A DNA stretch of 32,000 bases from Horticoccus luteus (GCF_019464535.1 NZ_CP080507.1:3390001-3422000), one strand, 5' to 3'; numbered from the stretch's first letter, positions 1-29,296 are shown. Numbers and translations are program-made. Notes: a model not told the origin generated them from the letters alone.

Positions 1-3000
1 TCCCGTCGTTGCGGCCATCGGCAGTGGTGTCGCCCGTCAGGTATTGCGCTGGCGCCGAAGTGACCACGTTGGCGATGTCTTTCTGGGCACCGGACGGCAT
101 GAGGATGTATTTGTCCTTCAGCCCCTTGAGCGGCAGATAATAAACGACGAGCGAGTTACTCGCCCAACTCGGCGTGTACGGTGCTGTCGAGGCAACGCCG
201 CTGAGGGTTTTATGGTTAACCGGATTGCTGTAGCTGAAGCTGTACAGCCGCATGTAACCAGTGGAGTTGAGCACGGCCTGGCGCTGCGCGTCGTTAAGAC
301 CGGTGAAATCGAGGTAGCTGTCGGACTTGTAGTCGGAGGTGACCGACGTGGCGGTGCGGCCGAGGTGATCCTCATCGCCGGCATTGGACCAATTGATCTG
401 ACTATTGAAGTAGTCGACGCCTTCGATGAGGATCGCTTTGTATTTCGAGCCATCCGGCGCGTTCGGGTTATAGTAACCGATCTGCTCCAGACTGATGTCC
501 ATCGTCTGATACTCCGAGCCCACCTTGACTTGGGTGGTGCCGATTTCCTCGGTGATCGTGGTGTATTCCAAGTGTGACTTGGGCACGACAATTTCACCGA
601 TGGCTACCTTGGTTGAACCGGTGACTTTGGTGACGGACTGCGTGGTCGTATCGTAAACTGGCACCAACACGGTGCGCTCGCCCGTGACGCTGGCGTCGGC
701 GGTCAGGATGACATCCCCACCCGCCCGCATCTTGAGTGCGCCGCCGGCCGTCACCGTGCCTTGCCCATTCACTTGAATGGTGCCGCCATGCAAATCGCTG
801 GTCGCAATCGTGCCTTCAAGCTGGGCGCGCGTCTGCAGCGTGTTGACGCCCGCGTTCATATCCAAGGTGCCGGCGGAATTCACCAACCCGTCGACGTAGA
901 GAAGGGAGTTCGCATTGATCAACATCCGCCCGGTCGTCGCCGTGACCTTTACGATGCCTTTGACGTAGATGACGTCGGCCGCAAGGTGCACCAGCGTATC
1001 GCCGATAATGATCGACTCGGGATGCGTGAGATCGACCTTGCCGTTGAGGAGGATGCTTTGCCGACCGTGGAAATAGTTGTCGGCCCCGCTGGCGGTTGCG
1101 TAAACGTGGCTGCCGGCGACGAGATTGATGCTGCCACCTTCGATCGCCACGTGGTCGCGGATATCGATCGTGCTGGTGATAATGACGTCGCCGCCGGTCG
1201 AATTGATCGTCAGCGAGGAAACCTTCGCGGCGGACGCAGGATTGCTCGGGTCGACCAACTGGCCGAGTACACCTTTAACCAGAATCGTATCGACGCCCGT
1301 GAGCGTGATGCTGCCCCCCGCCGCCGTGTCGACCGTGCCGCCGGTCAGTCGGTCGCCGTTGGCATCGAAGGTGAACTCATTAATATAGATCGAGAGGTGG
1401 GTGCCGTCAGTGCCCCCGGTGATGGAAACTTGATCGTAGGCGGAAACGAGATTGTCGATCAGGACGAGAGAATTGGAGAAGAGCGTTAGATCCGAACCGA
1501 TGTTCGCGGCCTGCACGACGCCTGAGATCTGAATATCGCCCGTGGTGCGGACATCGATCGACCCACCGGTGATAGTGTTGGCATCGGTCCATTGGCCCTG
1601 ACCTGACCGATCAAGCAGAATTGAGCTCAGATCCAGCACCGCGAAGCCGATCCCGTTCGCATCCATGCCGGATTGAATCTGGATGGCCCCTGAGGCCGCG
1701 AGGTAGCCGCCGGCAGGCACAACAGCGAAATTGGCGTCCAAGCCGTTGCCGCCAAGAATCACGGATTGTGTGCTGGTGATATAGAGATTCGAACCGGCAC
1801 CGGTCCACGAAACATCGGTGGTGTCGCTGTCAAAATCCGAGCCCGCGATCACGCGCCCAACGATGACAATACTCTGGGCTTCAAGGCGGATCTGGCTGGC
1901 GGCCCCCGAGGAGAGGATGGAGGCGTCCGCGCCGATTTGCAGCGCGCCGGCGGCGGTGATCGCGACCGCGGAATTGCCCTCCAACGTCGCGCCCATTGGA
2001 GTCGAAGTGCCCGCCACCGGATCAACATTGCCGAGCGCAACATTGCCGCCCGAAATAATTGTAAGGCGTTCGCCGGCACCGCGGACCAGCAGCCGCGTGT
2101 CATAGGCGGCAACATCGCCGCCGGAGGTCACCGAGACGGAACCCGCGAAGCTGAAGTCGCCATGGAGCGCGATCGAACCGGTGGCGGTGAAAGTGATTTC
2201 GTAGTCGTCAGTCGCAGGCGTGGTCCGGGTGCTGATGATATGGCCGTCAATATCAAGTTGGCGGCCCTTGAAGTTGAGCTGGGCACCCGTCTCGATCCGT
2301 CCGGCTTGTGCGGCGACGGAGAGTTTGCCTGTGGTGGAGGTTATCTCGATCAGGCTGACGTTGGGATTATCGCGACCGACTGTATTGTTGATGACCACAT
2401 CGTTCTGACCGGTGATCAGAATCCGGCCCGCGGTGCCGGTCGAAGTGAAGACAGCGGAGGGATCCGTTTGCACGCTGACTTCCCCGCTCTTCTCCGTGGT
2501 GCCGGCGGTGATGATGATGTCGCGGTCGGCGGTAAGGACGCCCTTGATTTCGATCGTGTTCTTGGCCGCGATGATGATGTCGGCATTGTGACCGCGGGCG
2601 ATGAACGTGCCGGTGATGACGCCCTGGCCGCCGGGGTTCAGCACAATATTGCCGCTAAGGGTCTCGATCACACCCGAAGAACTCACTTCAAGATTCTGGC
2701 CGCCGTCGGGAGCGAAACCGCTGTAGAGATTTACGGCATTGTAGCCGCGAATCCAGCCGGCGATGTAGATCTTGCCGTTCGGCGCATTCGGCCGGCCCAG
2801 ATTGGCCACGGATCCGAGTTGGCCGGCGTCGATGACATACGGACGGTTCGAGCTGGCTTGGCCTTCGCTCAACTGGGTGAACCCGAGTAGATTCGCCGCG
2901 CCGTCGGTCACCGCGTCAACGGACATTGCGGAGCCACCGGTCAGCATCAGGCGACCGTCATCGAGGCGGACCTTGATTTGAGAGGAATCAACGTGCGCCG

Positions 3001-6000
3001 TGCTGCCGATCACGGGCGTGCCTGAGGGCGAGATGAGGACCTTGAAATCGGTCGCCTCAATGGCGGTTTGAAGATCTGCCACCAAGTCGCCCAGGCCTGT
3101 ATTATCCGCAGTTGCAGATTTCAGGAGTGTCACCACGCCCGAAATCGTGTTCGTGCCCAAGTCCATCGTCAGGCGGAACGAAACGTCTGAGGTCAGATGC
3201 CCATCCACGTATTGGGCGAAGTCGGCCGCGATCAGTTCCTGCACCCAAGCCGGCGCGAGCACCGACATGTCGCCAGCGGCGCTCAAGTTGATGATGGCAT
3301 TTTGCTGCCAGGTCGCGAGGTGGACGTTGCCGCCGAGCACAATGCCCTGACCTTGCCAAAGATTGTCGGGCGTGGGGACGCCGGGATCATTGCCGCCGCG
3401 CACATCAATCAAGTGGCCGGCGGTAAGGTCGCGTCCCAAGCGGACTTGGTGACCCGCCTCGATGGTGATCGAGGAGGCGCCGCTGAAGTTCCGCGTCGTG
3501 CTGCCAAGGTAATCTCCCGCTGCATCGTAATGGTCGACAATTTCGCCGCCGGCGATGAGCAGGCCGTTGATTTCAGCATCCTGGCCGGAGCGGATGGTGA
3601 TGGTGCTGTCGGGGTTGTTGGTCGCGAGACGGGCGCCGCCCGGCATCTTCACGCCGATGTCGTCGGAATTGCCGCCGCCGATAATTGTGATGCTCTGGGT
3701 CGCGCGGATCGTGCCGCCAATCTCGACATCCTCACCGTTCAACGACCGGGTCATGGCGCCGAGATAGACTTGGCCGCTCGTTGAGATCGCGACACTGGAG
3801 TTTTCGTCCGACCACGTCGTCGTCTCACTCAACAGGTGGCCATCGGTGTCGAACGACTGCGTCTTGTTCCCGCCGGACAAGATCGTGGAGGCGACCTGAA
3901 CGTTGCCGACCGCATTGATGGTGACCGAACCGCCGCTGTTGTCTGAGGTGTAGCCGGCCGCGCTGAGGCCGGACGCTGTCGTGAGAACGACGGACAAGCC
4001 GGCATCGTCGAGGCTGGGCTGATCGGTGGTGGTGAGCGTGACGCTCTTCGCGGCCGCCAAAACTGTATCAACGTAAATGCGTTGGCCGGCGTTGACGAAG
4101 ATGGTCGAATCCGGGCCCTCGAAGGTGACTCCGGTCGGTCCGAGCTTGCCTCCGGCGACCACGGCGCCTTCGAGGATCACGTCCTGTCCGCCGGCGATTT
4201 GGACACTTGTGCCCGGCGTCGTAGTGTTGAGCGTAGTCGTGGCGCTCACGTAGACGCTGACACCGTCGGCATTGGCTTGCTTCAGGTTCGTGCCATCGAG
4301 CGAGACGCCGCCGAGCACGGTGATGTCGCCCGTGACGTTGGCCTGGCCTTCCCAATACACCCAGCGGTCGGACTGGACCACGAGATCGGAATTTGCGCCG
4401 AGGAGATTGATGTTACCGCGGATAATCGCGTCTTCGGTGCCGCTGATGACGATATCCGTGTTGTCCTGCATCGTGGTCAGTGTGCCGGCGAGGAGGAAAC
4501 CATAGCCGCGCTGGCCGAGGAGCGGATGGGGCGCTTCGATCAGGATCTCGTCGAAGACGCCGTCGTTCTGGTAGTCGCGGGCATCGATGACGTATTTGTG
4601 GCCGTCGGAATCCTGGACGATCCAACGATTAACGCCGGCCGCCGGGGTGCCGGCTGTGGCCAGGGAATCGTTGGTATAGTCGATCCCCTGGACAAACGTG
4701 GTGACCACCTGCTTACCGGCCGACGCCGCGGCGTTATAATAAACGTCGCCTTCGTAGTGGGTGTAGCCGCTCTGCGCGAGAACGCGGTATTGTTGGTCCG
4801 CCGTCAGATCGTCAAACGCGGTCCCGGTCGCCGGCACATCCACGTCGCTCCAGCTAATCTCGCTGTTCTGGTAGTCCGTGCCGGCGGCAAAGGTGAGGCG
4901 GAATTGATCGGCGGGCGCGGCCACCACGTTGTGGTAAACGACTCCCTTGAAGAGGCGATAGCCCGTCTGAGCCAGCACCACGGCCTGCTGGTCGGTCGTC
5001 AGGGATTCGAACTTCGCACCATCGTCGGGCTTGTCGACCGTGCCCCAAGTGATGTCCGCGTTATGGTAGTCGTCCCCTTCGACCAGAATTTCGCGAATTT
5101 GGTCTCCCGCCGCCTTGCTGGGGTTATAATACACAGGGCGACCGAAAACATCGTAGCCGAGGCTTTGCACGACCACCAAACGTTGGGCCGGAGTCAGATT
5201 CTCGAAGGTGGTGCCATCAGCCGGTGCCGCGACGCCCCCCCAGTCGATCTGGTTATAGGAGAAGTTCGGCGCCTGACCCTGAGTGAAGCCAGCCACCAAA
5301 GCCAATCCAAGGCTGGCGGCGGCGTTGAAATAGACGGTGCTGTTGTAAGTGGTATAGCCGAGCGCCGCCGCCACGATCGTCTTTTGCGCAAGGCTTAAGC
5401 TGGCAAAACCCGCATCAGCCGCGGGCGCACCGGCCGCGCCCCAGTAAATATCGGCGTTGCGGTAGTCGTTCACCGGGCCTTGGGAGAAGTCGTAGACTAG
5501 CTTCAGGCCCGGCACCGCGTTATAGTTGAAGAACGCATAACCGTCGTCTGTCCCGTAGCCGAGCGTCCGCGCCACCACAAGTTTTTGAACAAGCGAGAGG
5601 TCCGCGAAAGCGGTGTTGCTCGCCGGCGCCACGACGTGGCTCCAGTTCACGCTGGCGTTGTGATAATCCACGCCTTCAACGAAACCGAGGCGGTAGCGAG
5701 CCGATCCGGCGGCGTTGGGATTGGTGTAAACGACGCCGGCAAAAGGCGCGTAGCCGTCCGCCGCGGTGGCGGAGATCTCCGCCCCGGGCGCCGCGTTCGC
5801 ATTATAGTAGAGCGGTGCACCCTTGTAGAGATCGTAGCCCAAGCTCTCAATGACGACCAGCCGCTGGGCCGCGGTGAGATCATCAAATGTTGCGCTCGCA
5901 TCGGGAGCCACGACGCCTGAGGTGGACCAATCGATCTGTGCGTTGCTGTAGTCGGAGCTTTCGCCCTGGCTGAAGGTCGTGAGCACTTGCCGGCCTACCG

Positions 6001-9000
6001 GCGCCGATGCGTTGTAGAACACCGGCCCGTTCAAGGTGGTGTAGCCCAAGCTGGTGGCTACCGCCTGCTTTTGGGCAGAAGTGAGAGAGGCGAACGTCGC
6101 GTTTGCCGCGGGCGCACCCGCTGCGCCCCAGTTAATCGCGCTGTTTTGGTAGGCCGGCAAATCTCCCTCAACCAGAACGGTGGCGAAGACACCCGTCGTA
6201 GCGTTGTAGTAGGCTCCATCGGTATACACCGTGTAGCCCAACATGGTCGCCACGGCCGCCTTTTGGTCGGAAGAGAGGCTGCTAAACGGCAGAAAGTTGT
6301 CGACCGAGACGGCCGTCGCGTCGTTACCGAGTGTCAGATGCTTCGTGGCGAGGGCGGCGCGCAGATCGGCGGAGATCGTGCCGCTGTTCAGCGCGTCGAT
6401 AATAGCTTGGGTGTAAGCCACCGTGACCAAGGTGGGACCAGAGAGGTAGTCAAAATAGTCGGCAAAAGAATGCACAGTCGCCCCTGCCGAAATGGTCATG
6501 GCGCCGCCCGCGCTGACGGAGCCGGCCAATTCGAGTTCTCCGCCGGCGGCGATGGTGAGGGTCGTGTCGCGCCCGACCAAGTGCGGCACGGGTGTATCGC
6601 CATTGAAGGTATATTGCACGCCCGCCGAAATCGCACCACCCGGGTTGAGATGAAGATAGGTGCTCGACCGCAACGTGATCGTTGAGCGATTGCCATAGAC
6701 GGAGACGAACGCGCCTTCATCGATCGTCAGGCTCGTCCCGGCGGTCATTTCCACGGACGCATCGTCTCCCGTCGCAAAGATCGCGGTCGCACTGACAATC
6801 GATGCGCTCGTGGTGACGATCACACGGCTGCCATCATTCAAGCTGCCGAAGATGCTGCCGCGATCGGCGGTGATGCTGTTGGGTTCATCCCCGTAGCCCA
6901 CGATTTGATTGACGCCGGTGGTGCCGTTGACGGTCACCTCGAGCAGGTCACCGCCGCGCAGCCAACCGCTGACGACGAGCTGTTCGGTGATGTTGATATG
7001 GGTGCGCGGAGCAGTGACGCCGGAATCGGGTGCTCCCAACGGGTCGCGGACGTTGTTGCGCAGGACCTCCATGTAGCCCCCGACAAACGTGAGGTCTGTG
7101 GTGGACTGAACGTCGCCCTGCACCACGATGTGATCGGCGACGAGCACGGCGGCATCCGTGAAGCGCGCCTTAAAGTTGAAGTAGCCGATCGTCTCGTCTT
7201 CGACGTCGCCGACATACATCATGACATTGCTCGCTTGGTGACCGATGGCGATCCCGCTGAAGCCGTCTTGCAGCGCCGACAGATCGGTCATTCCCAGATC
7301 GAGATAACCCGTTGCACCCGCCGTAGAGTAGTCGCGGCCGTAGGTCGACTGGGCCGAGCCGCCGATATGATAATTTTGGAGCGGGCTGGTGGAGCGAATG
7401 GTCAGCGAGCCGAGGCCGCTCACTTTATCGTCGCCGGAGACAAAGTCCATGTCGTCGGCAGTGAGGCGAATATTGCCGCCGCCGTTGGCGGTGGAGAGAA
7501 CACCGCTGGCCAGCGTGAGCAACGCTTCACGGCCAGCCAGCTGGACATCGATCGCACCTGCGGCGGTATAGAGTCCGCCATTGGTTGAGTTGTCGTCGAC
7601 AATATTGAGATCGTCAGCTTCGCGGACCGTGAGGTTGGCCAGCAAGCCCGCGGGGGCGTTGTTGACGACCGAGAGTTCGGCGAGCTGGGTATTCAAGGTG
7701 CCGTCGATGCCGCCCGCGGTGTGAATACTGAGCAGGGCGGTCGGCGCCTTGAAGATGATATTTTGGACGTTGAGGACACCCGCTGCATCAATGAACAGAT
7801 CGGTCGCGCCCCAGCTCGCATTCGGCGCACTCTTGAAGGTGGTCGTGGCCGCCGAGTCCGTGATTTCCACCCGGTCGACGTTGTCGTCGAAATCGAGCGT
7901 GCGGTTTTGGTAGAGAAACTCGTGGTTGTTGAAGTTCAGCGCCTCGGTCGATGTCAGAGGATCGATGATGACGCGGTCGAAGCCGGCGCCGCCACCAATG
8001 TAGGCGTAGCCGCTCAGATTAACATGGATGGTGTTATTACCGCCGCCGAGGGAGACGGTGTCGCTGCTGCCGTCAAGGTAGAGGGTATCGTTGCCACTAC
8101 CGGTGCTGATGACATTGGTCCCGGAGCCCATGTCGATAACGACATCACCGCTGCCGCCGATAAAGGAGTCGTCACCATCATCCCCGTAATAGTGAATGCC
8201 GCTGACGCCGCCACCGACGAGCTGGTCTTTCCCCGCGCCGCCGTGAATGGTGCTGGAACTCGCGCCGCCCGCGATAAGGAAGACGTCATTGCCGTCGCCG
8301 CCATCGAAGACGAGTTTCGCGGTCACGCCGGCGGCGACTTGGATGGAGTCGTTGCCGTCACCTCCGTCCGCGATGATGGTATTGATGCCGTAGTATACAG
8401 AGGTGACGCCCAGCGAGGAGACACTCAGGCCGCCGTCGCCGTTGGGCTTGATCAGGTAGCTTTCATTCTTGATGTCGGCGTATAGGTCTTTGCCTGGCTG
8501 GTCGCGGTAGATGCCGCGCGGACCCATGTTGAGGTAGAGAGTATCGCCCACTTGCGTGGCGATGATGGGGGGTGCGCCCCAACTCCACGACATGCCTACG
8601 GAGAAACTGATGCCGACAATCGTGACCCGCAGGTTCATCGAGGCGTTGGCTTCGGTGAGTTTGATGGTAGCGTCCACGCCGGCCAAGGTCGCATGAATCT
8701 TGAACAGACCCATGTTGATGGAGAGGTCCAACGATCCCCAGAAGTGACCTTCGAATCCGCTATCGCTAAACGTCAACGACATCCCGGCATTGAATTCCAG
8801 CGGCCCCAGATCGAGCGAGACGCTGACCGTGCCGTTGATTTTGAAGTGCCCGTCGGACCGAATATAGCCGCTGATGCCAACGGTAATGAAGTTGAAGAAG
8901 TTCAGGTTGGCGTGGTCGATCCGCAGTTCGAAGACGTTGTCAACGACGCTAATAGAGCCCTGCACCGCGACGGTGAAAGCGATCAGCTTCATCGTGCCAT

Positions 9001-12000
9001 CGATGCCGATTCGATACGTGTTGCCCGTGACACCGGCGTGCGTCGAGGTGCCGGTGTTCATCTCAATCAGGGCTGTCGCGTCGATGCCAATGGGGCCAAG
9101 CGCCAGCGAAGCTGTGGTAGAAATGCTCAGCGCGAACACGACGCCTTCCGATTCAGTATTGAGGAAAGCCGCCGCTCCCTGCACCGCCAGGATGCCAATC
9201 CCGATGTCGAGTTGCATGTCGAGATTCGCCTCCAGCCCCTCATCGCTAAAGATGAGTTCCAACCGCCCCTTGAATTCGATCAAATCGATCAAGGTGAGTT
9301 TGGCCCCTACCATGATTCGATAGGTGTGCGCGGCGATCGTCCCCGCTTTGAGACCATTGCCGATCAGGCTGCCGTCATCGGCTATGTTGAGTGTTTGGAT
9401 GCTTTGGGCCGTATCGGTGCTGTTGATCTCCATTTGGAACGTGCCCGTGACTTTGATCACACCGCCCAGATCCACCTGCCCGGCCAACTGGAGGGAGCCC
9501 ACTACGCCTTGGTCGTTGATCTTAAGATAGCCTGACGCGGTCAGTGTGCCAATGAAGAGCTCCGCAGTGGCATTGACCTGCAGCTCCAGTTGAAACGCTT
9601 CGAACTGAATACCAATATAGAAATCCCCGTGCAGCTTGATGAAGCCCGCGACCGTTAAATCGCCCGAACCGCGCAGGACCAGATAGGCTCCCGCGGGGCC
9701 TTCGCTCCCATCGATCTGCGGTGCTCCGGCCGTGATCGTAACGGTCGTATAGCTGACGTGTGCCTTCAGGGAATCGGGGACCGTGTAGACGAACGCCTCA
9801 CCCGTGGTGTTGAGGTAGAAGCCAAACGAAGCGTCAAAGTCCAGGACGCTCGCGAGCGTGAAGTTGGCATCCAGTTCCAGCTTCATGCCGACGCCCGCGC
9901 TTGTGATCGCCATCAAGCCGAGGGCGTGCGCGGAGAACAACTGCGTCCCGGCAATATTGATCGAAGCCGTCGCATCGATGAACATGACCATCTTCTCGTT
10001 GGTGAGCTCGAAGTCGAAAATGCCTTCGACGGAGAGCACGCCGAAAATGTCGACCTTGAGATGACCGCTCGCCGCAATGCGGAGGTTGTCGAAGTCGAGC
10101 ACGACGGGCTCGGCATCGTTGCCTGTAGGCACGGCGAAGCTGCCACCCGCAAAGCTGTGCTGAAAGTCGACGACCGCCAGGCCGCTGCTGATCGACCCGC
10201 CCAAATTCACTTCGACTTTGAAATCGGTGGCTTCGGCCGTGAGGCCGCTGATGCCGACCAAGCCTATAAAGCCCACCGATAGTTTACCTGCGAAATAGAA
10301 ACTCGGATCGGTGACATCCACCGATTGCATGAACATGAAGCCCGCATCCAGGTTGCTGAGCGCGATGCCCACCGCGGAACCGTTGGTGGTGTCATTCTCG
10401 TCGATCTTACCGCTGCCGTCGGTGTCGGAGAAATAAGGTCCGTTGAAGCCGACGAAGCCGTAAACGTCGTTCATCCCCAGGGTCATCGTGCGGACGGTCT
10501 TATGCGACCCGTCGGACAGAGTGACGTCCTGGGTCGGCCCCAGCGAGAATTCCATGCTGCCAGAAATTTGGATTATGCCAGCGATTTGGATTTCCGCGTA
10601 ACCGATCTTCAGACGGATGAGTTCGGTGCCAAAATCCAGGTCGACCGGATGCAGAGGATCGCCGGTGTCGAGGTGGTAAACGCCGTCCCGCGCTCCCGGG
10701 GCGGTTTCGTAGGTCGCCTTGAAGTCGATGCTCGGCGTCGGCAGCAGCATGGCCGCCACTGTCAGGCCGGGCACGTTGATATCGTTGAACTCGAGCACCA
10801 AATCGCGGCCGTCGAGTGTGATCACATCCCCCACTCCGACCAGTTGCACGCGATCAGTCGTGGCCTTGATCGCCATATATTTCACCGGCGAGGCGCCGTT
10901 GGGAATGACCGTCGGCGTCATGATCGCGATGCCGAGATTCAAGTTTTCCAAACTTAGCCCGATCGCGTCTGAGTTGACGGTGTCGTTGCTGTCGATGACC
11001 CCGTCATTGTTCGTATCGGACTTGTAGGGTCCGTTCAGGCCGACGAAGCCGTAAACCTGGGAGGCTCCAATCGTCATGAACTCAACCTCCTGCGTGAACG
11101 AGTGCCCAAAGCCATCGTTCACCGTGACGGTTTGCGTCGGGCCTTTCACGAAGGCGAATGAACCGCGCAAGTAGATGAAGCCCGCGACCTGCAACGTCGC
11201 CATGCTCGTGGCGAGCTTTAGAATCCGGGAATCGAAATCGAGATAGATGGGGTCGCCGCCGGTGCCGACCTGCAGCCCGGCCGGTTCTCCGATCAAGCCA
11301 TCGCCGTCGGAATCGACGCCGGCCGCTTCCGCCGGGAAGCTCGCCTTGAAGTCGATGAACGGCGAGATCGGCGAGGTAATCGAGCTGCCGTTGACCTCGA
11401 CGTCGACGTCCTTCAACTCGAATTTGAAAATGTCGCCGCCACCCACGAACGCCACGCTGCTTGCGGTCGCCCGCAACGCGTAGAACTTGGGTGTATATTT
11501 GGCCAGTTGCGCCGGGACGATCGTCGGTTCGAGGATCGCGAGCGCAAAGTTGAAGTCGTCGATCGCAAAGCCGATGGCCGAATCGCTTTTGCTATCGAAT
11601 TCGGTGATGCGGTGGTCGCCATCGGAATCGGTCCAATACGGGCCACCGATGCCGACGAACGCCCGCACGTGGGACGCCCCGAGCGTGATCGTCGACATTT
11701 CAATATTGTCGAACTCCGTTGGCAGGCCGAGCGAATCCGCGATATCGCTGCTTACACCGGTATTTATCGTGGTGCGGTAAGCCGGCCCTTTGAGGAACGA
11801 AAACCCACCGTAAACTTCGACGAAACTCGCGAGACGTATCTCGGCGTAGCCAACCGTGAGGCCAATGCGTTGCTGCCCGTCGAACGCCAGGTAGACCGGA
11901 TCCCCTCCCGTTTCGACCTTTAGCCCGAGAGGATCAGTGTCGTTGGCGGGGAAGCTCGATTGAAAATTGATGACGGGCGCCCAGCCGGTTCCTTTGGCGA

Positions 12001-15000
12001 AGCTCCATTCGTCGCCGTAATTCACTTCGACGGTGATGTCTTCGGCGCGGACTGTGAACCAATCGCCGAAGCCATAGGTGCCGACTTCCGCCGCCGTAAT
12101 CTTCAGCGCATACATTCGCGGGACGTCGATGCCCAAGACCGATTCGGCGTTAAAGATGCCCAAGCCCACGTCGACATCGCGCATGCCGAAGCCGATGAGA
12201 TCTTGATCCGCAAAGTCCTTGGAAAAGTCGGGGGTGCCGTAGCCGATGAAGACGCTGACGTTCGATGCGCCAATAGTGATAGCGCTGACGGCGACGTTGT
12301 GCAGCGTCGCGAGATCGCTGGAGAAGTCGGGTTTCAGGAAAGCGGGCAGCTTTATAATCTGATCCAGCAAAGCGCTGAGCGAGTCGCCCGCGAGATCCGT
12401 GAGATTGCCCGGGAAACCGGTGGCAACGTCGACTTCGTGCCGATCGCCAAAATTGAAGGCGAAGTCGCCTTGCAGATGCACAAACCCTCCGAGGTTCAAC
12501 GTCAAATCCGGTATCTCCAACAGCCCGGTGAGCGAGAACCCAAAGTCGGGATCAAATCCGATGGAAAGATTGAGGTTCTTGAGGAAGTCGAATGCGCCCT
12601 TCAAGAAATCGAGCGAGTCCGGCAAATCGCCCAAAAGATCGCCCAAGCCTGCCAGGCTCAGTCGCGGCAACCCGCCCAGATCCAAAGAGAACGAAAAACT
12701 GAAGCTGCCGCTGATGGTGAAGAGCCCGAGCAAACCGAGGTTACCGAGTCCAATATCCAACGAAAGCAGGTTCGTATTGAAATCGATGTCCAGGTTCAGG
12801 CCCGGCAGCGAGAAACTGAGTCCGCCAAACGAGGAGAAATCGACATAGAATCCCGGCAGTTTGCCGACATTCAGAGAGAAGGAGATATCGAAGGCGCTCA
12901 GGCTCAGCCAGTCCGAGATGTCAAAGGATCCCAGACCCGGAATATTGGCCACGCCCACCAATGCCGCCGAGCCCACGTGCGCGGTAAACGCGTAGAATTG
13001 CATGTTGGTGATGTTCACCACGCCGCCGAGCGACGGCGTCACAATGGCCAACGCGAAACTCAGGTCGCCGATCGCCAGACCCAGCGCTCCGCTGGCGACG
13101 TGCCCGCCAATGTTATCCGTCCAATATGGCCCGCCGATGCCCGCGAACGCGTAAACATGGGAGGCAGAGATCGTGAGGACTTCCGCGGCCGCTTGCACCA
13201 CGATCGGACCGGCATGGAAATCGACCAGCGAAATGGTCTGCTTCTCAAACGCGAACGCGCCTTGCACGCTGACGAATTGCGAGAGCGTCAGGCGCGCGTA
13301 GGTGGTTTGCGCCAGAATCCGGCTGTTTGTATAGTCGATTACGACGGTGTTTGCCCCGATGGTAAGTTGCAGCCCGGCCGGATCGGTGCCGTTGGCCGGG
13401 AAGCTGGTGGCAAAATTCACCGCGGTGCCGAGCGGACCCGTGTTCACCTCGACGGTGATGTCTTGGATCGTGAGATCGAACAAATCGGCACCGAAGCCGA
13501 CGAACCCGATCTGCGTAGCCGTGGCTTTCATCGCCACATAGGTCTGATTCCCCACCACCGTCTTCATCACGACCAACGCCAGATTAAGATCGTCGATAAC
13601 AAAACCAACCGCGGCATCATTTACTGTGCCGTCCGCGTTGCGGTAAGGGCCATCTACGCCCACGAACGCCTCCGCATTTTCAATGACGAGCGTGAGAGTG
13701 TTTACCGGCACGTCATGCAGCGTGCCCAGCGTGCCGCCCACGATGTCGACGTTGGCTTTCTCCCCCTGCGAGAAGGCCACGTCGGCCTTCAAATAGACAA
13801 ACCCTGCCACGTTGAGGGTCGCATCCTCCACCGAGCCGCCGATGACGGCTGTCGTGAAATCCAGCACCACCGACGCACCGCCCGTCCGAATTTCGAGGCC
13901 GGGAGGGCCCACGCTATTCGGGAAACTGGTGGCGAAGTTGATTACCGCGCCCAACGGGTTGTTGGATTGATTAAGCTGAGCGGTGATGTTTCCGGCCGAA
14001 AGCTGGAAGACGTCGGGATCGAAACCATAGAGCGCGACCGACGCCGCGGACAACTTCATCGCCGTATAGGTAAAACCGCCGGCCTTGATCTGCGTGAGAC
14101 CGAAACTCACACCCTCAACTCCGAACCCGTAAAGAGTGTCAGCCTGCTGGGCGAATGTTTTGGCGGGGTCGATCTGCCCATCGATATACCCGACAAACGC
14201 ACTGATATCGCTCCCTCCGACGCTGAAACCATCCGCCGCACCCAACGGGAGCGAGAGGCTGGACTTAAGCGCAGTCGCACCATACGAAGCCTTTTCGAAG
14301 CCGATGCCGCCCCGGAAGTAAAAGAACCGATAGACCGTCAGCACGGCTTCGCCGGCGAAGATTCCCAAACGTTCACCGGAAGTGTAATCGAGCGTCACAT
14401 CGTCGCCCCCGGTGCGGACGGTCAGCCCGCCGTCTGCGAAACTCTTGGTGAAATCGAGTGCCTTGCCCTGCAAGGTGCTTTGGTTGACCTCCACATCCAC
14501 ATCAGTCGCGGAGATCTGCATGATCTCGTCGTCGATGCCGTAGATTTTCATCGTATCGGCGTGCGCTTTGACCGCGGTGTAAGTCTGCCCGCCGGCCTTG
14601 ATTTGCACGACCGCAAAGGAAACCCCTTCGACTCCAAATCCGTAGAGATTATCCTTCTGTTCCTCAAAGCTCTTCGTGGAATCAATTGCGGTCGTGGCAT
14701 AACCCACGAACGCACTGATATTGCTGCCTCCAATGGTAAACCCGCTTCCACTTCCGATGATCGGCAGCCCGTTGTTGAGCGAATTCGCCGACACCGCGAA
14801 CTTCTCGAAACCCAAGCTGCCGCGGAAGTAGACGAAACGATAAATGGTCAGCAAAGCCTCGCCGGTAAATATCCCCAGCCGTTCGCCCGCATCGTAATTG
14901 ATTACCACATCGTCGCCGCCGGTGCGGACCGTGAGACCGGCGGTCCCAAAGCTGGCGCCGAAATCGAGACCTTTGCCGGCCACGGTGCTTTGGTTGACCT

Positions 15001-18000
15001 CGAGATTCACATCGCTCGCCGAAATCTGGAAAATTTCCGGATCGATGCCGTAAATCTTCATCGTATCGGCGTGCGCCTTCACCGCAGTGTAGGTCTGTCC
15101 GCCGGCTTGGATCTGCACCATGCCGAATGAGACACCTTCAACGCCAAAGCCGTAGAGATTGTCCTTCTGCTCGTCGAACGTTTTGGCGGAATCGATGGTT
15201 GTCGTGGCGTAGCCGACGAACACGTCAATATTACTGCCACCGATCGTGAAGCCCTGGCCGCTTCCGGCAATCGGCAGACCGTTGTCGAGCGTGCCTGCCG
15301 CCGTCGTGAATTTCTCAAAACCGAGACTGCCGCGGAAATAGACAAACCGGTAAACCGTCAGCAGCGCCTCCCCTACGAAGACACCGAGCCGTTCGCCCGC
15401 ACCATAATCGAGCACAATGTCGTCCCCTCCCGTGCGCACGGTAAGTCCGTCCGTGCCGAAACTCGCTCCGAAGTCCAATGCCTTGCCGACGACGGTGCTT
15501 TGGTTGACCTCGAGATTCACATCGCTCGCCGAAATCTGGAAGATTTCCGGATCGATGCCGTAAATCTTCATCGTATCGGCGTGCGCCTTCACCGCCGTGT
15601 AGGTCTGCCCGCCCGCTTCGATCTGCACCATGCCAAACGAAACGCCTTCGACACCAAAACCGTAGAGATTGTCCTTCTGCTCGTCGAACGTCTTGGCGGA
15701 GTCGATGGCTGTGGTGGCGTAGCCGACGAACACGTCAATGTTGCTGCCCCCGATCGTAAAGCCTTGGCCGCTTCCGGCAATCGGCAGACCGTTGTCGAGC
15801 GTCCCCGCCGCCGTCGTGAATTTCTCAAAACCGAGACTGCCGCGGAAATAGACAAACCGGTAGACCGTCAGCAGCGCCTCCCCTACGAAGACGCCGAGCC
15901 GTTCGCCCGCATCATAGTCGATGATCACATCGTCCCCGCCGGTGCGGACCGTCAGTCCATCCGTGCCGAAGCTCGTTTTGAAATCGAGGGCCTTGGTCGG
16001 CACGGTGCTGCGATTGACCTCGATATTAACGTCGGTGGCTGAGAGCTGAAAATATTCGGCATCGATCCCATACAACGCGACCGTGTCGGCATGCGCCCGG
16101 ACCGCCGTATAGGTGGCTCCGGCAGCTTGAATTTGCACCACCGCAAAGTCGACACCCTCGACACCGAAGCCGTAAAGGTGATCGGCTTGATCCGCGAACG
16201 ACAGCGCAGGATTGATCGGTTGGCTGGCATAGCCGACAAAGGCACTGATATTGCTTCCGCCGATCGTGAAGCCCTGACCAGCCGAGGTAATCGGCAGGCC
16301 GTTGTCGAGCGTGTTCGCGGCGACGGTGAACTTCTCAAAACCAAGGCTTCCGCTGAAATAGACGAATCGATAGATCGACAGGAGCGCAGATCCTGCGAAC
16401 ACGCCCAACCGCTCAGTATTATCATAAGTCAACGAAACAGGTGTGCCGCCCGTGCGCACCGTCAGCCCATCGGCCCCGAAGCTCTTTATAAAGTCGAGGG
16501 CCTTGCCCGGCACTGAGCTGTTGTTGACCTCAATATTGACGTCACTGGCCGACAATTGAAATATTTCCGGGTCGATACCGTAAAGTTTGACCGTATCCGC
16601 GTGCGCCGAGACTGCCGTATAGGTCTGGCCGCCCGCCGTCACCTTCACCATGCCGAAGTCCACATTTTCGACGCCAAATCCGTAGAGATTGGCCGCTTGA
16701 TCGGCGAAAGACTGATCGCGATCCACGCCACCGCTCGCATAACCGACAAAGAGATCAACGCCACTTCCCCCGATGGCGAATCCTTGCCCCGCGCCGGCGA
16801 TCGGATTCCCATTATCAAGTGTGCCGGCTTCATATGTCGCCTTTTCGATGCCAATGCTGCCTCGGACGTAGACGAAGCTCGAAATGCTCAACGTGGCGGT
16901 CTCCGCAAAGAGTCCAAGCCGCTCTCCCCCGGTGTAATCAAATATTGCATCGTTGCCGCCTGTGCGGACTGACAAGCCGCCATCAGCCGCGAAGGTTGTC
17001 GCAAAATCGATGGTCGGCGCACCTTTCACGCCGCCTTGATTCACTTCCACGGTGACATTCTCGAAAGACAGATCGAAGTCGGATGGGTCAAAACCGTAAA
17101 CCGCCACGCTGGCGGCGCTCGCTTTGAGTGCTGTATAGTTTTTCCCGCCGGCCTTTACTTCCAAAAGCGCGAAGTCCACCCCTTCGACTCCAAAACCATA
17201 TAGATTCGAACGTTGGTCGCTAAATGATTGGTCGGCATCAACGCCACCCGTTGCATAACCGACAAACGCCGAGACGTTGCTGCCCGTGATCGCGAGAACG
17301 CTTTCGGTGGTGGCAGTCGTGCCATCCGAAAGCGTCAGCTCATCGGCGGGCGTCGTTTGCTCAAAGCCGATCCTGCCGCGGAAATAGAGAAAGTCGAACA
17401 GCTCGAGTTGCACGTCGGCGGACGCGCGGGTGAGTTGCCCCCGCGATCCATCAGTCGAGATCGCGAAGGTCGAGCCAACACCTGTCAGCACGTCTAGCGG
17501 CGTGGCCGAAAAATCCAGCACCGTGGTGTTCGCGACGGCCGAAGCATCCGTTCCGGACGCTCGGTTGATTTCCAATTCCAGCTCGGTAACTGCCACTGTG
17601 ACGCCGAAATTCTCAAAGCCTGTGGCAGTGATGCTGGCCGCGGTGGCCCCCAAAGTTGTCCACGTCCGATGATCTCCTGATGTCGCCGCCCCCGTCGGAG
17701 TGAAGAGTCCGAGCCCGAAATTGAGATCCGTGACCTCAAAACCAATCGCATCCGGTGTGCCGCCGTTGATGCCGACAAACGCGTTCAAACCATGGCCACC
17801 GATCGTTAGCATATCAACCGCGACGGAGGTCTTGTCCGCGTCCGCGAGCGTCACCGTTGTGGCTTTCTTCTCGATCGCCATCTCGCCGTTCAGCGACGCG
17901 AATCCGAAGAGGTCGATTTTAAGATTTCCTGTCGCTCGGAGGAGGTCGCCATCGGCGCCGGCGAACTCAAGCGCCATCGTCGTGGTCGACCCGGTTTTTA

Positions 18001-22012: not shown

Positions 22013-22321
22013 GGACGAGGGCCGACCCTGAAGATTCGGCTGCGCGTCGCAATCCCCTTTTTACACCATTAGAGACATAAATCCGACAGCCATGACAGGA
22101 TTTAGTCTTCTATCCGCCTACGCCTAAACCCCGACAGGCCGTTTCGGCAAACCCTGACTTTGGGGCGTGGAATTGGCATTCCGCTGCAGCGCCCACTCCC
22201 TCGCCGGGAAAGATCGCGTGGGGCGGGCAACTCGAAACGCGATTCCGTCTCTGCGCCTCGTCCTACCGAACCACGGCGTCAGCGCCGCACTTCGCGGTCT
22301 GGAGCATTTTTCGGATCTGTC
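22013..22321 (-). promoter_or_regulatory. Intergenic leader upstream of the giant gene; presumed promoter region
   Basis: This is 309 bp of non-coding DNA between the stop of the hybrid kinase (22322) and the proposed TTG start. It contains the most AT-rich stretch of the neighbourhood (about 22055-22130). I could not identify a convincing -35/-10 pair or Shine-Dalgarno sequence. Confidence 0.3.
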
Positions 22322-23875: not shown

Positions 23876-24120
23876 GGGGAAAATCTCGTCTAAGAGCATC
23901 TTGCCAAAAGGAAGCGTCCGACGTGCGGCCAAGGTAGCAGCGTTTCCCGTGTCTGCACCTCAAAAGATTTCCAGCCGCTCAAAATATTACTCGGTATTTG
24001 GATAGGGTTTTACCCGATGCCAAAGTCGGGGATTGTGCCCCGGGCCGCACTTGGCACGGGACCGCTTCCACGGCAATTACCTCGGCTGCGGTGTCGGTCC
24101 ACGCCCGCGTTTCCAGCTAC
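23876..24120. promoter_or_regulatory. Divergent intergenic region between the hybrid kinase and the sensor-kinase operon
   Basis: Non-coding if the preferred starts (23875 and 24121) are correct. It contains an AT-rich patch, caaaagatttccagccgctcaaaatattactcggtatttggatagggtttta, at about 23961-24012. No promoter elements could be assigned confidently. Confidence 0.35.
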
Positions 24121-25566: not shown

Positions 25567-26027
25567 GCAAACCCAAAAACATTCTCCTCGCCGAAGACAG
25601 CCCGCTCGACGTCGAGATGACGGTGACTGCGCTGAGTGACCACAATCTCGCCAATACCATCGTCGTCGTGCGCGATGGCGCGGAAGCCCTCGACTACCTT
25701 TACCGCCGCGGCGCCTTCGCTGCGCGCACCGACGGCGATCCCGCCTTGGTCCTCCTCGACATCAAGATGCCTCGCGTCGACGGCTTGGAAGTCCTCCGTC
25801 AGATCAAGGGCGACGATTCCCTGCGCACGATTCCGGTCGTCATGCTCACTTCGTCCCGTGAAGAGAGCGATCTCGCCCGCAGTTACCGCTTGGGCATCAA
25901 CGCCTACGTCGTAAAGCCCGTCGACTTTCCGGCGTTCATGGACGCGTTGAAGCAAGTCGGCGTTTTTTGGACCGTGCACAACGAACTCCCGCCTTCCTCC
26001 ACGGCGCCCGCGCCCGTCTTGTCGTGA
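25563..26027 (+). CDS. Single-domain (CheY/Rcp1-like) response regulator with no output domain
   Basis: Within track ORF 25482..26027; the preferred start is ATG 25563 (MSKPKNILLAEDSPLDVEM...). That ATG overlaps the kinase stop as ATGA (25563-25566). Acceptor context is LVLLDIKMP, followed by VVMLTSS and AYVVKP. The C-terminal ...FWTVHNELPP tail is typical of Rcp1-type regulators. Confidence 0.85.
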   Translation: MSKPKNILLAEDSPLDVEMTVTALSDHNLANTIVVVRDGAEALDYLYRRGAFAARTDGDPALVLLDIKMPRVDGLEVLRQIKGDDSLRTIPVVMLTSSREESDLARSYRLGINAYVVKPVDFPAFMDALKQVGVFWTVHNELPPSSTAPAPVLS

Positions 26028-27940: not shown

Positions 27941-28503
27941 ACTCCACTTCCACCCGCGTGCAGCGCCATCTGCACCGCCTGCTCTGCGTCTTCGTCGTCG
28001 CCTGCACGTTTGCCGCGCCCGTCGGTGTCGCCGAACCCGTCGCGCGCCAACTCGATATCGAAGCCGTCTTCCTTCTCAACCTCACCCGTTTCATCCGCTG
28101 GCCGGATAAATCGTTTCCCGCTGACGACGCCCCTCTCTACATCGGCCTCCTTCCCACCGACCCGATCGCCACCGTGCTCAACGAAGCCGCCGGCGGGGAA
28201 TCCTCCGGCTCGCATCCGATCAAGCTCCGCTGGATTCGCAACGCCGCCGATGCCAACGACTGCCATCTCGTCTTCTTCTCGAAGTCCACGCTGACCGAAT
28301 CCGCCCAACTGGTCGCCGGCTTGCGCGACAAACCCGTGCTGCTCGTGAGCGATTCCGACGGCTTTCTCCGCCTCGGCGGCCAGATCCTCCTCTACAAGCG
28401 CGGCACCCAGGTGCGCCTCCGCATCGACCTCGCCAACCTCCGCCGCTCCAATCTCACCGCGAGCACCTCCCTCCTGCGCGTCGCCGATCTGGTCAACAAG
28501 TGA
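27928..28503 (+). CDS. YfiR/DUF4154-family periplasmic protein
   Basis: Within track ORF 27817..28503; the ATG at 27928 overlaps the receptor gene by 13 nt. The signal peptide reads ...LHRLLCVFVVACTFAAPVGVA. Family hallmarks recognised by eye are EAVFLLNLTRFIRWP, CHLVFFSKS and PVLLVSDSDGFLRLGGQILLYKRGTQVRLRIDLANLRRSNLTASTSLLRVA. Confidence 0.75.
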   Translation: MALLNSTSTRVQRHLHRLLCVFVVACTFAAPVGVAEPVARQLDIEAVFLLNLTRFIRWPDKSFPADDAPLYIGLLPTDPIATVLNEAAGGESSGSHPIKLRWIRNAADANDCHLVFFSKSTLTESAQLVAGLRDKPVLLVSDSDGFLRLGGQILLYKRGTQVRLRIDLANLRRSNLTASTSLLRVADLVNK

Positions 28504-29291: not shown

Positions 29292-29296
29292 GGCTT

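What the first reader, a model, noticed from the sequence alone, without database searches (positions are those of the whole stretch)
4661..6287. Eight tandem copies of an unrecognised ~65-aa LGY...YYN...DYxNxxIxW repeat
The units, in order:
- FSSLSSDQKAAVATMLGYTVYTDGAYYNATTGVFATVLVEGDLPAYQNSAINWGAAGAPAANAT
- FASLTSAQKQAVATSLGYTTLNGPVFYNASAPVGRQVLTTFSQGESSDYSNAQIDWSTSGVVAPDASAT
- a ~93-aa expanded copy, FDDLTAAQRLVVIESLGYDLYKGAPLYYNANAAPGAE...RYRLGFVEGVDYHNASVNWSHVVAPASNTA
- FADLSLVQKLVVARTLGY...NDYRNADIYWGAAGAPAADAG
- FASLSLAQKTIVAAALGY...NFSYNQIDWGGVAAPADGTT
- FENLTPAQRLVVVQSLGY...DDYHNADITWGTVDKPDDGAK
- FESLTTDQQAVVLAQTGY...TDYQNSEISWSDVDVPATGTA
- FDDLTADQQYRVLAQSGY...IDYTNDSL

The unit appears to be a short amphipathic helix (L-[ST]-x-x-Q-[KR]-x-x-V) followed by aromatic-rich strands. 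It is embedded between beta-helix tracts and recurs at 210-490. The conserved Tyr/Trp/Asn positions resemble those of carbohydrate-binding modules. That idea is speculative. I do not recognise the family.
Basis: seen in the sequence. Interest (0 to 1): 0.65.

Follow-up and report, generated by a model that had tools for sequence, protein, structure and literature searches.

The report
Undescribed 65-residue repeat in giant protein
Eight tandem copies of a small, previously uncatalogued protein domain really do sit inside a giant (over 7,300 residues) acidic, cysteine-free, probably secreted bacterial surface protein, most likely as a fixed-length stalk segment, and nothing tested supports the idea that they bind sugars.

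Summary
The eight units are residues 5259-5812 of one open reading frame (window 22012 down to 2) that runs off the window. Leave-one-out profiles score each unit at 60-87 bits, against at most 12 for shuffles. No Pfam, NCBIfam, PHROG or PDB sequence profile matches the unit. AlphaFold2 folds a single unit confidently (pLDDT 89.8) as a helix, a Tyr-rich hairpin and a Trp-anchored loop. Foldseek finds no PDB or viral analogue.

A profile search of 1.84 billion protein representatives finds about 60-80 true carriers. The ones I examined are fragments of, or whole, giant proteins labelled "hypothetical". They come from Verrucomicrobiota, Alpha- and Gammaproteobacteria, Chlorobium and Desulfosarcina. 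Each window unit matches the same-position unit in other species better than its own neighbours, so the array is old and of nearly fixed length.

The host protein has an N-terminal LEPR-XLL motif, no cysteine, net charge -428 and an internal RTX-like calcium roll. It therefore resembles type-I-secreted giant adhesins.

Best reading: a new small-domain family forming a semi-rigid connector between beta-helix-like segments. Multivalent ligand binding is not excluded. The sugar-binding idea has no support.

The parts
2..22012 (-). Giant open reading frame of at least 7,337 aa. Its C-terminus lies beyond the window start. The likely start codon is TTG at 22012, upstream of the LEPR-XLL motif.
   Evidence: The frame 2..22060 is stop-free. 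It is colinear at 40 % identity over aa 3796-7353 with an ORF of more than 7,215 aa in Vreelandella andesensis, and that ORF continues at least 1,800 aa further. It has 0 Cys and net charge -428.
21911..21964 (-). N-terminal LEPR-XLL motif (…LIEALEARVLLSA…).
   Evidence: NCBIfam NF012209 LEPR-8K scores 19.7 bits against a curated cut-off of 17, at frame residues 33-50.
10529..21058 (-). About 20 tandem copies of a different repeat of 170-215 aa (aa 335-3844). It is also Pfam-dark. The central copies have a 170-aa period and are nearly identical.
   Evidence: phmmer of one copy against the protein gives 19 colinear matches. There is no Pfam hit.
8021..8503 (-). Internal RTX-like calcium-binding beta-roll (aa ~4520-4680).
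   Evidence: PDB sequence hits: M. primoryensis adhesin RIV antifreeze domain 3p4g (E = 2e-4), serralysins and CyaA RTX blocks. Pfam HemolysinCabind scores 21.3 bits, below the cut-off of 23. A 27-bp tandem repeat lies at 8042-8094.
6095..6286 (-). Repeat unit 1 (aa 5259-5322).
5888..6094 (-). Repeat unit 2 (aa 5323-5391).
5609..5887 (-). Repeat unit 3 (aa 5392-5484). It is expanded by an internal duplication of the Tyr hairpin (profile positions 1-44 then 15-65).
   Evidence: The same doubled-hairpin unit is seen in P0001, P0003, P0007, P0008, P0010, P0027, P0031, P0035 and L003.
5408..5608 (-). Repeat unit 4 (aa 5485-5551), the 'FFNYN…IYWG' type.
   Evidence: Its best matches are the 4th unit of P0008 and of L003.
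5207..5407 (-). Repeat unit 5 (aa 5552-5618).
   Evidence: It is part of the 3.4-unit AlphaFold2 model.
5012..5206 (-). Repeat unit 6 (aa 5619-5683).
   Evidence: The single-unit AlphaFold2 model has pLDDT 89.8.
4817..5011 (-). Repeat unit 7 (aa 5684-5748).
   Evidence: Its best matches are the penultimate units of other arrays.
4625..4816 (-). Repeat unit 8 (aa 5749-5812). It is the last unit and lacks the Trp.
   Evidence: Its best matches are the last units of P0021, P0026 and P0007.
218..499 (-). Isolated, degenerate extra copy or pair about 1,400 aa downstream of the array (aa 7188-7281).
   Evidence: The same isolated copy lies at the same distance in the Vreelandella ORF (aa 5250-5332) and in P0011, P0013, P0018 and P0020.

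Best explanation
The eight units are tandem copies of a previously uncatalogued small protein domain of about 65 residues that folds on its own.

Predicted layout of one unit, in order:
- a capping turn (F-x-x-L-T/S);
- a 10-residue amphipathic helix whose L4, Q8, V12 and L16 stripe faces inward;
- a Tyr-rich beta hairpin (G-Y…G-x-V-Y-Y-N);
- a third short strand (…F-x-Q-G);
- a D-Y-x-N-x-x-I-x-W loop;
- a short conserved Ala/Pro linker (…V-x-x-P-A-A-G-T).

The units are strung head to tail between two beta-helix-like segments in the C-terminal half of a giant protein. That protein is acidic, cysteine-free and carries an N-terminal LEPR-XLL motif. It looks like a calcium-dependent, type-I-secretion-style surface fibre or adhesin.

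Most likely role (inferred): the array is a fixed-length, fairly stiff connector or stalk segment that spaces and orients the flanking beta-helical parts. On this reading the conserved Tyr, Phe and Trp residues form the tiny hydrophobic core rather than a sugar-binding platform.

What is shown and what is inferred:
- Shown: the repeat, its phase, its family, its lack of any catalogued relative, its positional orthology, and the host protein's composition and motifs.
- Predicted: its autonomous fold.
- Inferred: the secretion route, the surface location, the rigidity and the spacer role.
For: Reality and fold of the repeat:
- The repeat is real and periodic.
- A single unit folds confidently alone (pLDDT 89.8).
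- In the 3.4-unit model the blocks that contain the linkers have pLDDT 91-96, with mean pLDDT 85.7 and pTM 0.60. This suggests ordered rather than floppy junctions.

Conservation:
- The conserved columns are mainly hydrophobic, aromatic, Gly or Pro: F1 92 %, L4 92 %, V12 84 %, L16 78 %, G17 86 %, Y18 86 %, F41 70 %, G44 92 %, Y47 83 %, W54 99 %, P60 94 %.
- The aromatic columns are replaced almost only by other hydrophobic residues.

Age and fixed length of the array:
- Every window unit has a better match at the equivalent ordinal position in other species' proteins than within its own array. Units 4-8 correspond to the last five units of P0008 and P0010.
- Larger fragments and full-length relatives carry about 7-8 full units (up to 9 in P0011). 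This indicates an old array of nearly fixed length, not a freely expanding one.

Host protein:
- LEPR-XLL hit above the curated cut-off.
- 0 Cys in 7,337 residues and net charge -428. Most homologues are also Cys-free and strongly acidic.
- The internal RTX-like roll matches the MpIBP RIV domain and serralysin.
- A published Vibrio giant protein combines LEPR-XLL with C-terminal RTX and serralysin domains (PMC10868602).
- In RTX adhesins, tandem small domains with ordered linkers act as extenders (PMC7493085, abstract seen).
Against: - No experiment and no solved structure supports the role.
- I could not inspect model coordinates, so the burial of the conserved aromatic residues and of Q8, N28, D46 and N49 is inferred from substitution patterns only.
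- Eight units is few compared with classic extender regions. This protein already has a separate extender-like tract of about 20 copies, so a pure spacer role for the 65-residue array is not obviously needed.
- The array sits in the distal half, where RTX adhesins usually place ligand-binding domains.
- Several polar positions (T5, Q8, K/Q/R9, N28, D46, N49) are conserved and could form a binding or calcium site.
- The C-terminus and any secretion genes lie outside the window, so the type I secretion route is untested.
- The flanking 'beta-helix' character was not verified.
Confidence: 0.45

Rival explanations
1. The array is a multivalent ligand-binding, lectin-like module. Each unit would present exposed Tyr/Trp and Asn/Asp side chains to a polysaccharide or other repetitive surface. 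Eight weak sites in a row would give avidity near the distal part of the fibre.
For: - The unit is rich in Tyr and Trp and has conserved polar N28, D46 and N49.
- The G-Y…Y-Y-N hairpin can be duplicated within a unit. By my recollection, not tested, this resembles the tandem aromatic hairpins of cell-wall- or glucan-binding repeats.
- The array lies in the C-terminal half, where RTX adhesins carry ligand-binding domains (PMC12077191 and PMC6650083, abstracts).
- Orthologous units are kept distinct from one another across phyla. This could reflect unit-specific ligands.
Against: - No CBM, lectin, CW_binding or LGFP profile recurs among 120 single units. No family matches more than 2 of the 120.
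- There is no PDB sequence hit and no structural hit.
- The aromatic columns are substituted by hydrophobic residues only, as expected for a core.
- A 65-residue domain needs nearly all of its roughly 12 conserved hydrophobic residues to form a core (inference).
Confidence: 0.27
2. The array is a calcium-dependent hinge or folding ratchet. Acidic residues at the unit junctions would bind Ca2+ outside the cell. That would drive folding after secretion and stiffen the segment, as in RTX adhesin extender linkers.
For: - The host protein is very acidic and cysteine-free and contains an RTX-like roll.
- D46 is 78 % conserved, and Asp or Glu are frequent at unit positions 2-3, 50-53 and 62-63.
- Calcium in the linkers between repeats is the rule in RTX adhesin extenders (PMC7493085).
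Against: - Only one acidic column (D46) is strongly conserved.
- The array's net charge is only -26 over 554 residues, less acidic than the protein as a whole.
- There is no recognisable calcium-binding motif or profile hit within the units.
- The AlphaFold2 run does not model ions, so it cannot speak to this.
Confidence: 0.15
3. The repeat is an artefact. It would be a chance periodicity in a GC-rich antisense frame, or low-complexity sequence without a folded domain.
For: - The + strand shows many long shadow ORFs in one frame over the same region. This shows how readily GC-rich sequence yields open frames.
- Tandem Repeats Finder finds no DNA repeat there.
Against: - The minus-strand frame is open for 22 kb.
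- Leave-one-out scores are 60-87 bits, against at most 12 for shuffles.
- 62 representative proteins match the unit profile at E <= 1e-10.
- The protein is colinear at 40 % identity over more than 3,500 residues with a cultured Vreelandella genome.
- The AlphaFold2 models are confident.
Confidence: 0.01

Closest known systems
Tandem extender domains (bacterial Ig-like repeats) of RTX adhesins such as Marinomonas primoryensis MpIBP, Vibrio cholerae FrhA and the LapA-type proteins
   Same: - Small domains repeated head to tail with short ordered linkers.
- They sit inside a giant, acidic, cysteine-free protein that contains RTX-type calcium rolls and is probably exported to the surface of a Gram-negative cell.
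- The likely role is to give length and stiffness.
   Different: - The unit here is an alpha/beta mini-domain of about 65 residues, not a beta-sandwich of about 100 residues.
- There are only 8 copies, old and mutually divergent (31-49 % identity).
- The array lies between beta-helix-like segments, not between an N-terminal anchor and the ligand-binding region.
- No Big/Ig profile matches.
- The N-terminus carries LEPR-XLL. No retention module was detected by the Pfam and NCBIfam scans, though it was not specifically searched for.
- The C-terminal secretion signal was not seen because it lies outside the window.
LEPR-XLL ('LEPR-8K', NCBIfam NF012209) giant proteins
   Same: - The host protein passes the curated cut-off for this N-terminal motif.
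- It is in the size class the model's name refers to.
- A Vibrio example of about 8,000 aa with C-terminal RTX and serralysin domains is described in PMC10868602.
   Different: NF012209 covers only about 24 N-terminal residues. It says nothing about the 65-residue repeat, which no library model covers.
Aromatic-hairpin binding repeats (choline/cell-wall-binding CW_binding_1, glucan-binding 'YG' repeats, LGFP repeats) and small carbohydrate-binding modules
   Same: - Tandem arrangement.
- A Gly-Tyr…Tyr-Tyr-Asn hairpin.
- A conserved Trp.
- The hairpin alone can be duplicated.
   Different: - The unit is three times longer than a 20-residue CW repeat and includes a helix.
- No profile of these families matches. 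LGFP matched 2 of 24 three-unit stretches at E about 0.05, and CW_binding matched none.
- There is no structural match in the PDB.
- The resemblance is recalled from memory and is only a lead.
Tyr/Pro-rich (YP) region between the FHA-1 and FHA-2 beta-helical repeat regions of CdiA proteins
   Same: A Tyr-rich segment inserted between two long beta-helix-type repeat regions of a very large exported filament. This comparison rests on my knowledge of CdiA architecture.
   Different: - No TPS domain, FHA profile (only one weak Fil_haemagg hit in a homologue) or toxin tip was found in the region the window covers.
- The segment here is a regular array of folded mini-domains.

Membership tests
Any catalogued repeat or domain family (Pfam-A, NCBIfam, PHROGs) | The unit or array scores at or above the family's curated cut-off. 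| tested here: not met
   - Array against Pfam: only GAAD at 15 bits, below its cut-off of 23.6.
- NCBIfam: none.
- 24 three-unit stretches: only sub-threshold short-motif hits, for example Gluconate_2-dh3 positions 63-82 in 9 of 24.
- 120 single units: no family matched by more than 2.
- PHROGs: only weak families of unknown function.
- A 'faint' precomputed DUF7979 flag on P0001 was not reproduced by hmmscan at E <= 10.
Any solved structure (PDB) | Significant sequence-profile or fold similarity. | tested here: not met
   - Profile of 120 units against PDB sequences: best E = 0.22, a chance match to T4 lysozyme.
- phmmer of the array: no hits.
- Foldseek with the 3.4-unit model: best E = 7.
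- Foldseek with the single unit: no hits at E <= 10.
- BFVD viral models: best E = 2.7.
- Caveat: Foldseek is weak for 65-residue domains, and no AlphaFold DB search was available.
LEPR-XLL domain proteins (NF012209), host protein | N-terminal LEPR-x-LL motif scoring above the curated cut-off. | tested here: met
   19.7 bits against a cut-off of 17, frame residues 33-50, sequence LIEALEARVLLSA.
RTX proteins / RTX adhesins, host protein | Calcium-binding nonapeptide (GGxGxD) beta-roll repeats. | tested here: inconclusive
   - Pfam HemolysinCabind scores 21.3 bits, just below the cut-off of 23.
- PDB hits to RTX rolls: 3p4g (E = 2e-4), serralysin (E = 1e-3) and CyaA.
- The roll is internal, not C-terminal.
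RTX proteins / RTX adhesins, host protein | C-terminal type I secretion signal and adjacent ABC transporter / membrane-fusion protein / TolC genes; N-terminal retention module. | not testable with these tools
   - The C-terminus and the downstream genes lie beyond the window start.
- The upstream neighbours are two-component system genes, not secretion genes.
- The related loci fetched lie entirely inside the gene.
RTX proteins / RTX adhesins, host protein | Acidic, cysteine-poor composition typical of type I secretion substrates. | tested here: met
   0 Cys in 7,337 residues, net charge -428, 12.3 % Gly and 7.4 % Asp. Homologues are likewise acidic and cysteine-poor.
Carbohydrate-binding modules / lectin repeats | Sequence or fold membership in a CBM or lectin family. 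| tested here: not met
   No CBM or lectin profile recurs. There is a single CBM_4_9_1 hit at E = 0.098 in 1 of 120 units. There is no fold match.
Carbohydrate-binding modules / lectin repeats | Demonstrated binding to a carbohydrate through exposed aromatic residues. | not testable with these tools
   This needs a glycan array or ITC, and model coordinates or a structure. Only DSSP and pLDDT values were returned here.

The most novel reading that the evidence does not exclude
The unit is a new protein fold that defines a new family of adhesive mini-domains. The eight-unit array would be the substrate-recognition device of a widespread but wholly unannotated class of giant fibres of 9,000-11,000 residues. 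These fibres are shared by Verrucomicrobiota, Proteobacteria, Chlorobiota and Desulfobacterota. Each positionally conserved unit would recognise a different feature of a polymeric surface such as an algal or bacterial polysaccharide.
Probability: 0.15. Interest if true: 0.65.

Novelty: new variant of a known kind. Interest (0 to 1): 0.45.

Why it matters
Giant bacterial surface proteins mediate attachment, aggregation and biofilm formation. Most of their sequence is uncatalogued, and this one has almost no library hits across 7,337 residues.

The finding defines a new domain of about 65 residues with a confident predicted fold and no detectable structural analogue. It gives clear boundaries, a family alignment of about 290 units and a conserved position within a giant protein shared across several phyla. 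That is enough to seed a Pfam or InterPro entry.

It also gives experimentalists a small, expressible fragment for testing what this class of fibre does. A cultured carrier is available: Vreelandella andesensis DSM 19434.

It does not overturn any concept. Tandem small domains in megadalton adhesins are a known theme.

Tried and rejected
1. Alternative genetic code. The + strand lists many ORFs in one frame. Translation shows an antisense 'shadow' of a minus-strand gene, so this was rejected.

2. Word-indexed homologue searches. They returned only 3, 2 and 1 proteins. The third search, made with a 120-unit profile, was wasted. The exhaustive representative search was what revealed the family.

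3. The weak tail of that search (E > 1e-6). It consists of fn3, PKD and other repeat proteins that add up chance matches, so it was excluded from the family.

4. Alignment-based genome scan. The single-protein scan found 2 loci.

5. First multi-unit alignment (A2). MAFFT aligned overlapping windows by identity instead of in register. I rebuilt it as A4 from non-overlapping stretches.

6. Viral contigs: no relative. Rfam: nothing in the window.

7. Source organism. One window protein is found only on a 2-kb Logan contig from SRR34023387, so taxonomy is undetermined. The closest array found in the genome scan is in a Puniceicoccaceae MAG, at 39 % identity.

8. PepSY-like, subtilisin-propeptide-like and T4-lysozyme-like similarity. 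These rest only on chance-level sequence hits and have no fold support, so they were rejected.

9. BapP of Pseudoalteromonas (PMC12153261) is a different protein of 1,600 aa and is not related.

10. The giant protein in PMC12057145 has CASH, RHS and polysaccharide lyase 6 domains. It has a different architecture.

Full report
**Where the feature is**

The + strand shows a chain of ORFs that all share one frame. Their translation is Arg/Gly/Ala/Asp-rich and does not contain the quoted peptides. A six-frame scan finds the quoted peptides on the minus strand, inside a single stop-free frame spanning window 2..22060 (7,353 codons) that runs off the window start. The + strand ORFs are antisense shadows of this gene.

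Codon i of the frame starts at nt 22060-3(i-1). The eight units start at residues 5259, 5323, 5392, 5485, 5552, 5619, 5684 and 5749.

**Is it more than chance?**

- A profile built from seven units scores the eighth at 60.6-86.5 bits. Two hundred shuffles of each unit never exceed 11.7 bits.
- Residue autocorrelation over the region peaks at lag 65 (0.186, against a maximum of 0.148 in 500 shuffles). DNA autocorrelation peaks at lag 195 (0.370, against a codon-shuffle maximum of 0.358).
- The copies are old: 31-49 % amino-acid identity and 42-57 % nucleotide identity. This is why Tandem Repeats Finder reports nothing there.
- The 93-residue third unit is an internal duplication of the hairpin: profile positions 1-44 followed by 15-65.
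- The claimed recurrence at 210-490 is real. Residues 7195-7228 match profile positions 25-58 (E = 2.3e-10) and residues 7252-7281 match positions 1-30.

**Is the family catalogued?**

- Pfam and NCBIfam give nothing above threshold for the array.
- They give nothing for 24 three-unit stretches from different proteins. The only hits are short sub-threshold matches to the F-x-x-L-T-x-x-Q helix motif.
- They give nothing for 120 single units. No family is matched by more than two units.
- PHROGs gives only weak families of unknown function.
- A 'faint' precomputed DUF7979 flag on homologue P0001 was not reproduced by hmmscan at E <= 10.
- PDB sequences give no hit, either with a 120-unit profile (best E = 0.22) or with the array itself.

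**How big is the family?**

The word-indexed searches found only five fragments. An exhaustive hmmsearch of a unit profile against 1.84 billion cluster representatives found 104 proteins at E <= 1e-3, 62 at E <= 1e-10 and 39 at E <= 1e-30. The weak tail consists of fn3, PKD and other repeat proteins that sum chance matches. True carriers therefore number roughly 60-80 clusters.

Many are contig-limited fragments, and some are giant proteins of up to 7,504 residues (7,973 for a cluster member). Larger fragments and full-length relatives typically carry about 7-8 full units.

Ten of them were looked up, and the sources name nearly all of these "hypothetical protein". The organisms include Oceanicaulis sp., a Pseudomonadota MAG and Desulfosarcina ovata (BBO82884.1, a weak member). 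A Chlorobium sp. entry is labelled "calcium-binding protein". A genome scan added a Puniceicoccaceae MAG (Verrucomicrobiota) and the cultured Vreelandella (Halomonas) andesensis DSM 19434. No relative was found in viral contigs.

**Anatomy of the unit**

AlphaFold2 on 3.4 consecutive units (24-row alignment) gives mean pLDDT 85.7 and pTM 0.60. A single unit with a 120-row alignment gives pLDDT 89.8.

DSSP on the models shows, in order:
- a short turn at F-x-x;
- a helix at residues 6-15;
- a hairpin (about 18-21 and 25-28);
- a short strand around residues 37-41;
- bridges at G44 and Y47;
- a 3-10 turn at residues 49-51;
- then I52, W54 and an extended Ala/Pro linker.

The ten-residue blocks that contain the linkers have pLDDT 91-96. 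This suggests ordered junctions.

Across 120 units the best-conserved columns are F1 (92 %), L4 (92 %), Q8 (94 %), V12 (84 %), L16 (78 %), G17 and Y18 (86 % each), G44 (92 %), D46 (78 %), Y47 (83 %), W54 (99 %) and P60 (94 %). The aromatic columns are replaced almost only by other hydrophobic residues. L4, Q8, V12 and L16 lie on one helical stripe.

I infer that the conserved aromatic residues build the small core. I could not check burial because coordinates are not returned.

Foldseek finds no analogue:
- PDB with the 3.4-unit model: best E = 7.
- PDB with the single unit: no hit at E <= 10.
- BFVD: best E = 2.7.

This is compatible with a new fold. It is weak evidence, because Foldseek has little power on 65-residue domains and the AlphaFold DB was not available.

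**Evolution of the array**

Each window unit has a better BLAST match in another species' protein, usually at the same ordinal position, than within its own array:
- Unit 4 matches the 4th unit of P0008 and L003.
- Unit 5 matches the 5th of 8 in P0008 and P0010.
- Unit 7 matches the penultimate units of other arrays.
- Unit 8 matches the last units of P0021, P0026 and P0007.

The doubled-hairpin unit (window unit 3) opens the array in many relatives. The window has two extra units before it. The array therefore predates the divergence, or the transfer, among these lineages. Its C-terminal five units are individually maintained. There is no sign of concerted evolution or recent expansion.

**The host protein**

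- The frame carries the motif LIEALEARVLLSA at residues 33-46. NCBIfam NF012209 (LEPR-XLL, 'LEPR-8K') scores 19.7 bits against a cut-off of 17. This puts the start at the TTG at 22012 and the visible length at 7,337 residues.
- The protein has no cysteine, net charge -428 and 12 % Gly. Most homologues are the same.
- Residues 335-3844 are about 20 copies of a separate repeat of 170-215 residues that is also unknown to Pfam.
- Residues ~4520-4680 resemble RTX calcium rolls: PDB 3p4g (M. primoryensis adhesin RIV) at E = 2e-4, serralysins and CyaA. Pfam HemolysinCabind scores 21.3 bits, just under its cut-off.
- The protein is colinear at 40 % identity over residues 3796-7353 with the Vreelandella ORF. 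That ORF continues at least 1,800 residues further. P0027 continues about 3,500 residues past the equivalent point. The full protein is therefore probably 9,000-11,000 residues.
- The same layout is conserved in Vreelandella and others: the array, then an isolated degenerate copy about 1,400 residues downstream.
- A Vibrio giant protein with LEPR-XLL plus C-terminal RTX and serralysin domains has been noted in the literature (PMC10868602).

Acidic, cysteine-free, Gly/Asp-rich composition with RTX rolls is the established signature of type-I-secreted RTX proteins. The secretion signal and the transporter genes lie outside the window, so this route remains an inference.

**Explanation and rivals**

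I commit to the following, with confidence about 0.45. The array is a fixed-length, fairly stiff connector made of eight autonomous mini-domains, placed between two beta-helix-like segments of a giant secreted fibre. This is analogous in role to the extender repeats of RTX adhesins, where ordered linkers stiffen tandem domains (PMC7493085).

The main rival is a multivalent ligand-binding array (about 0.27). It is favoured by the distal position and the conserved polar residues. It has no support from any profile or fold comparison. A calcium-dependent hinge (about 0.15) is possible, but only one acidic column is strongly conserved. An artefact is excluded.

**Novelty**

The domain family is undescribed in every library I could search, and its carriers are nearly all annotated only as hypothetical proteins. 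The kind of thing is well known: tandem small domains in a megadalton bacterial surface protein. I therefore rate it a new variant of a known kind, of moderate interest.

**Neighbourhood**

Upstream of the giant gene, on the same strand, lies a hybrid histidine kinase with two receiver domains (22322-23932). After that come:
- a CHASE8/HAMP histidine kinase;
- a response regulator;
- a TonB-dependent receptor and a DUF4154 protein on the + strand;
- coaX, coaBC, panC and panB on the minus strand.

No secretion genes are visible. No Rfam family is present.

Noticed in passing
window 10529-21058 (-), aa 335-3844 of the giant ORF: There are about 20 tandem copies of a second, unrelated repeat of 170-215 residues (…FVYFRGSLGFEK…GGPYW…). 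It also has no Pfam or NCBIfam match. The six central copies (aa ~1552-2596, period 170 aa or 510 bp) are far more alike than the outer ones (125-415 bits against 9-40 bits to the query copy, itself included), which suggests recent duplication. The period exceeds Tandem Repeats Finder's 500-bp limit, so it was not reported.
   Followed up: partly
window 8021-8503 (-), aa ~4520-4680: An internal RTX-like calcium-binding beta-roll sits in the middle of the protein, not at the C-terminus. It matches the ice-binding RIV domain of the Marinomonas primoryensis adhesin (3p4g, E = 2e-4), serralysins and CyaA. The 27-bp tandem repeat at 8042-8094 is its nonapeptide periodicity.
   Followed up: partly
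window 2-22012 (-): The giant protein has no cysteine in 7,337 residues and net charge -428. Apart from the 24-residue LEPR-XLL motif, no Pfam or NCBIfam model passes threshold anywhere in it. Colinear relatives imply a further 1,800-3,500 residues beyond the window.
   Followed up: yes
window 44-21451 (+): A chain of about 25 + strand ORFs of 100-1,056 aa all lie in the same frame. They are antisense shadow ORFs of the minus-strand giant gene, not genes and not a sign of stop-codon reassignment.
   Followed up: yes
window 22322-28503: A regulatory and transport cluster lies next to the giant gene's start. It holds a hybrid histidine kinase with two receiver domains (minus strand, 310 bp upstream of the giant gene), a CHASE8-HAMP histidine kinase, a single-domain response regulator, a TonB-dependent receptor and a DUF4154 (YfiR-like) protein. 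It could regulate the giant gene. This was not tested.
   Followed up: partly
window 28512-31996 (-): A pantothenate/CoA biosynthesis cluster (coaX, coaBC, panC, panB) has G+C of 65-69 %, against about 58-62 % for the giant gene. GC skew also turns strongly negative from about 22 kb onward.
   Followed up: no
L001 (GCA_037975565.1, JBBCBH010011374.1, 64153-85661): The orthologous giant gene in this NCBI assembly is broken into many called genes. P0002 contains out-of-frame stretches inside the repeat array. This points either to assembly frameshifts or to a pseudogene.
   Followed up: no
P0027, P0031 and P0086 (C-termini): Three complete-looking low-GC relatives end with a shared C-terminal motif, …(M/V/I)(F/P)FEYW(T/I/V)(N/E)(S/N)(L/I)(V/A)I. 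It may be a sorting or secretion signal of this protein class. The window protein's own C-terminus is not available for comparison.
   Followed up: no
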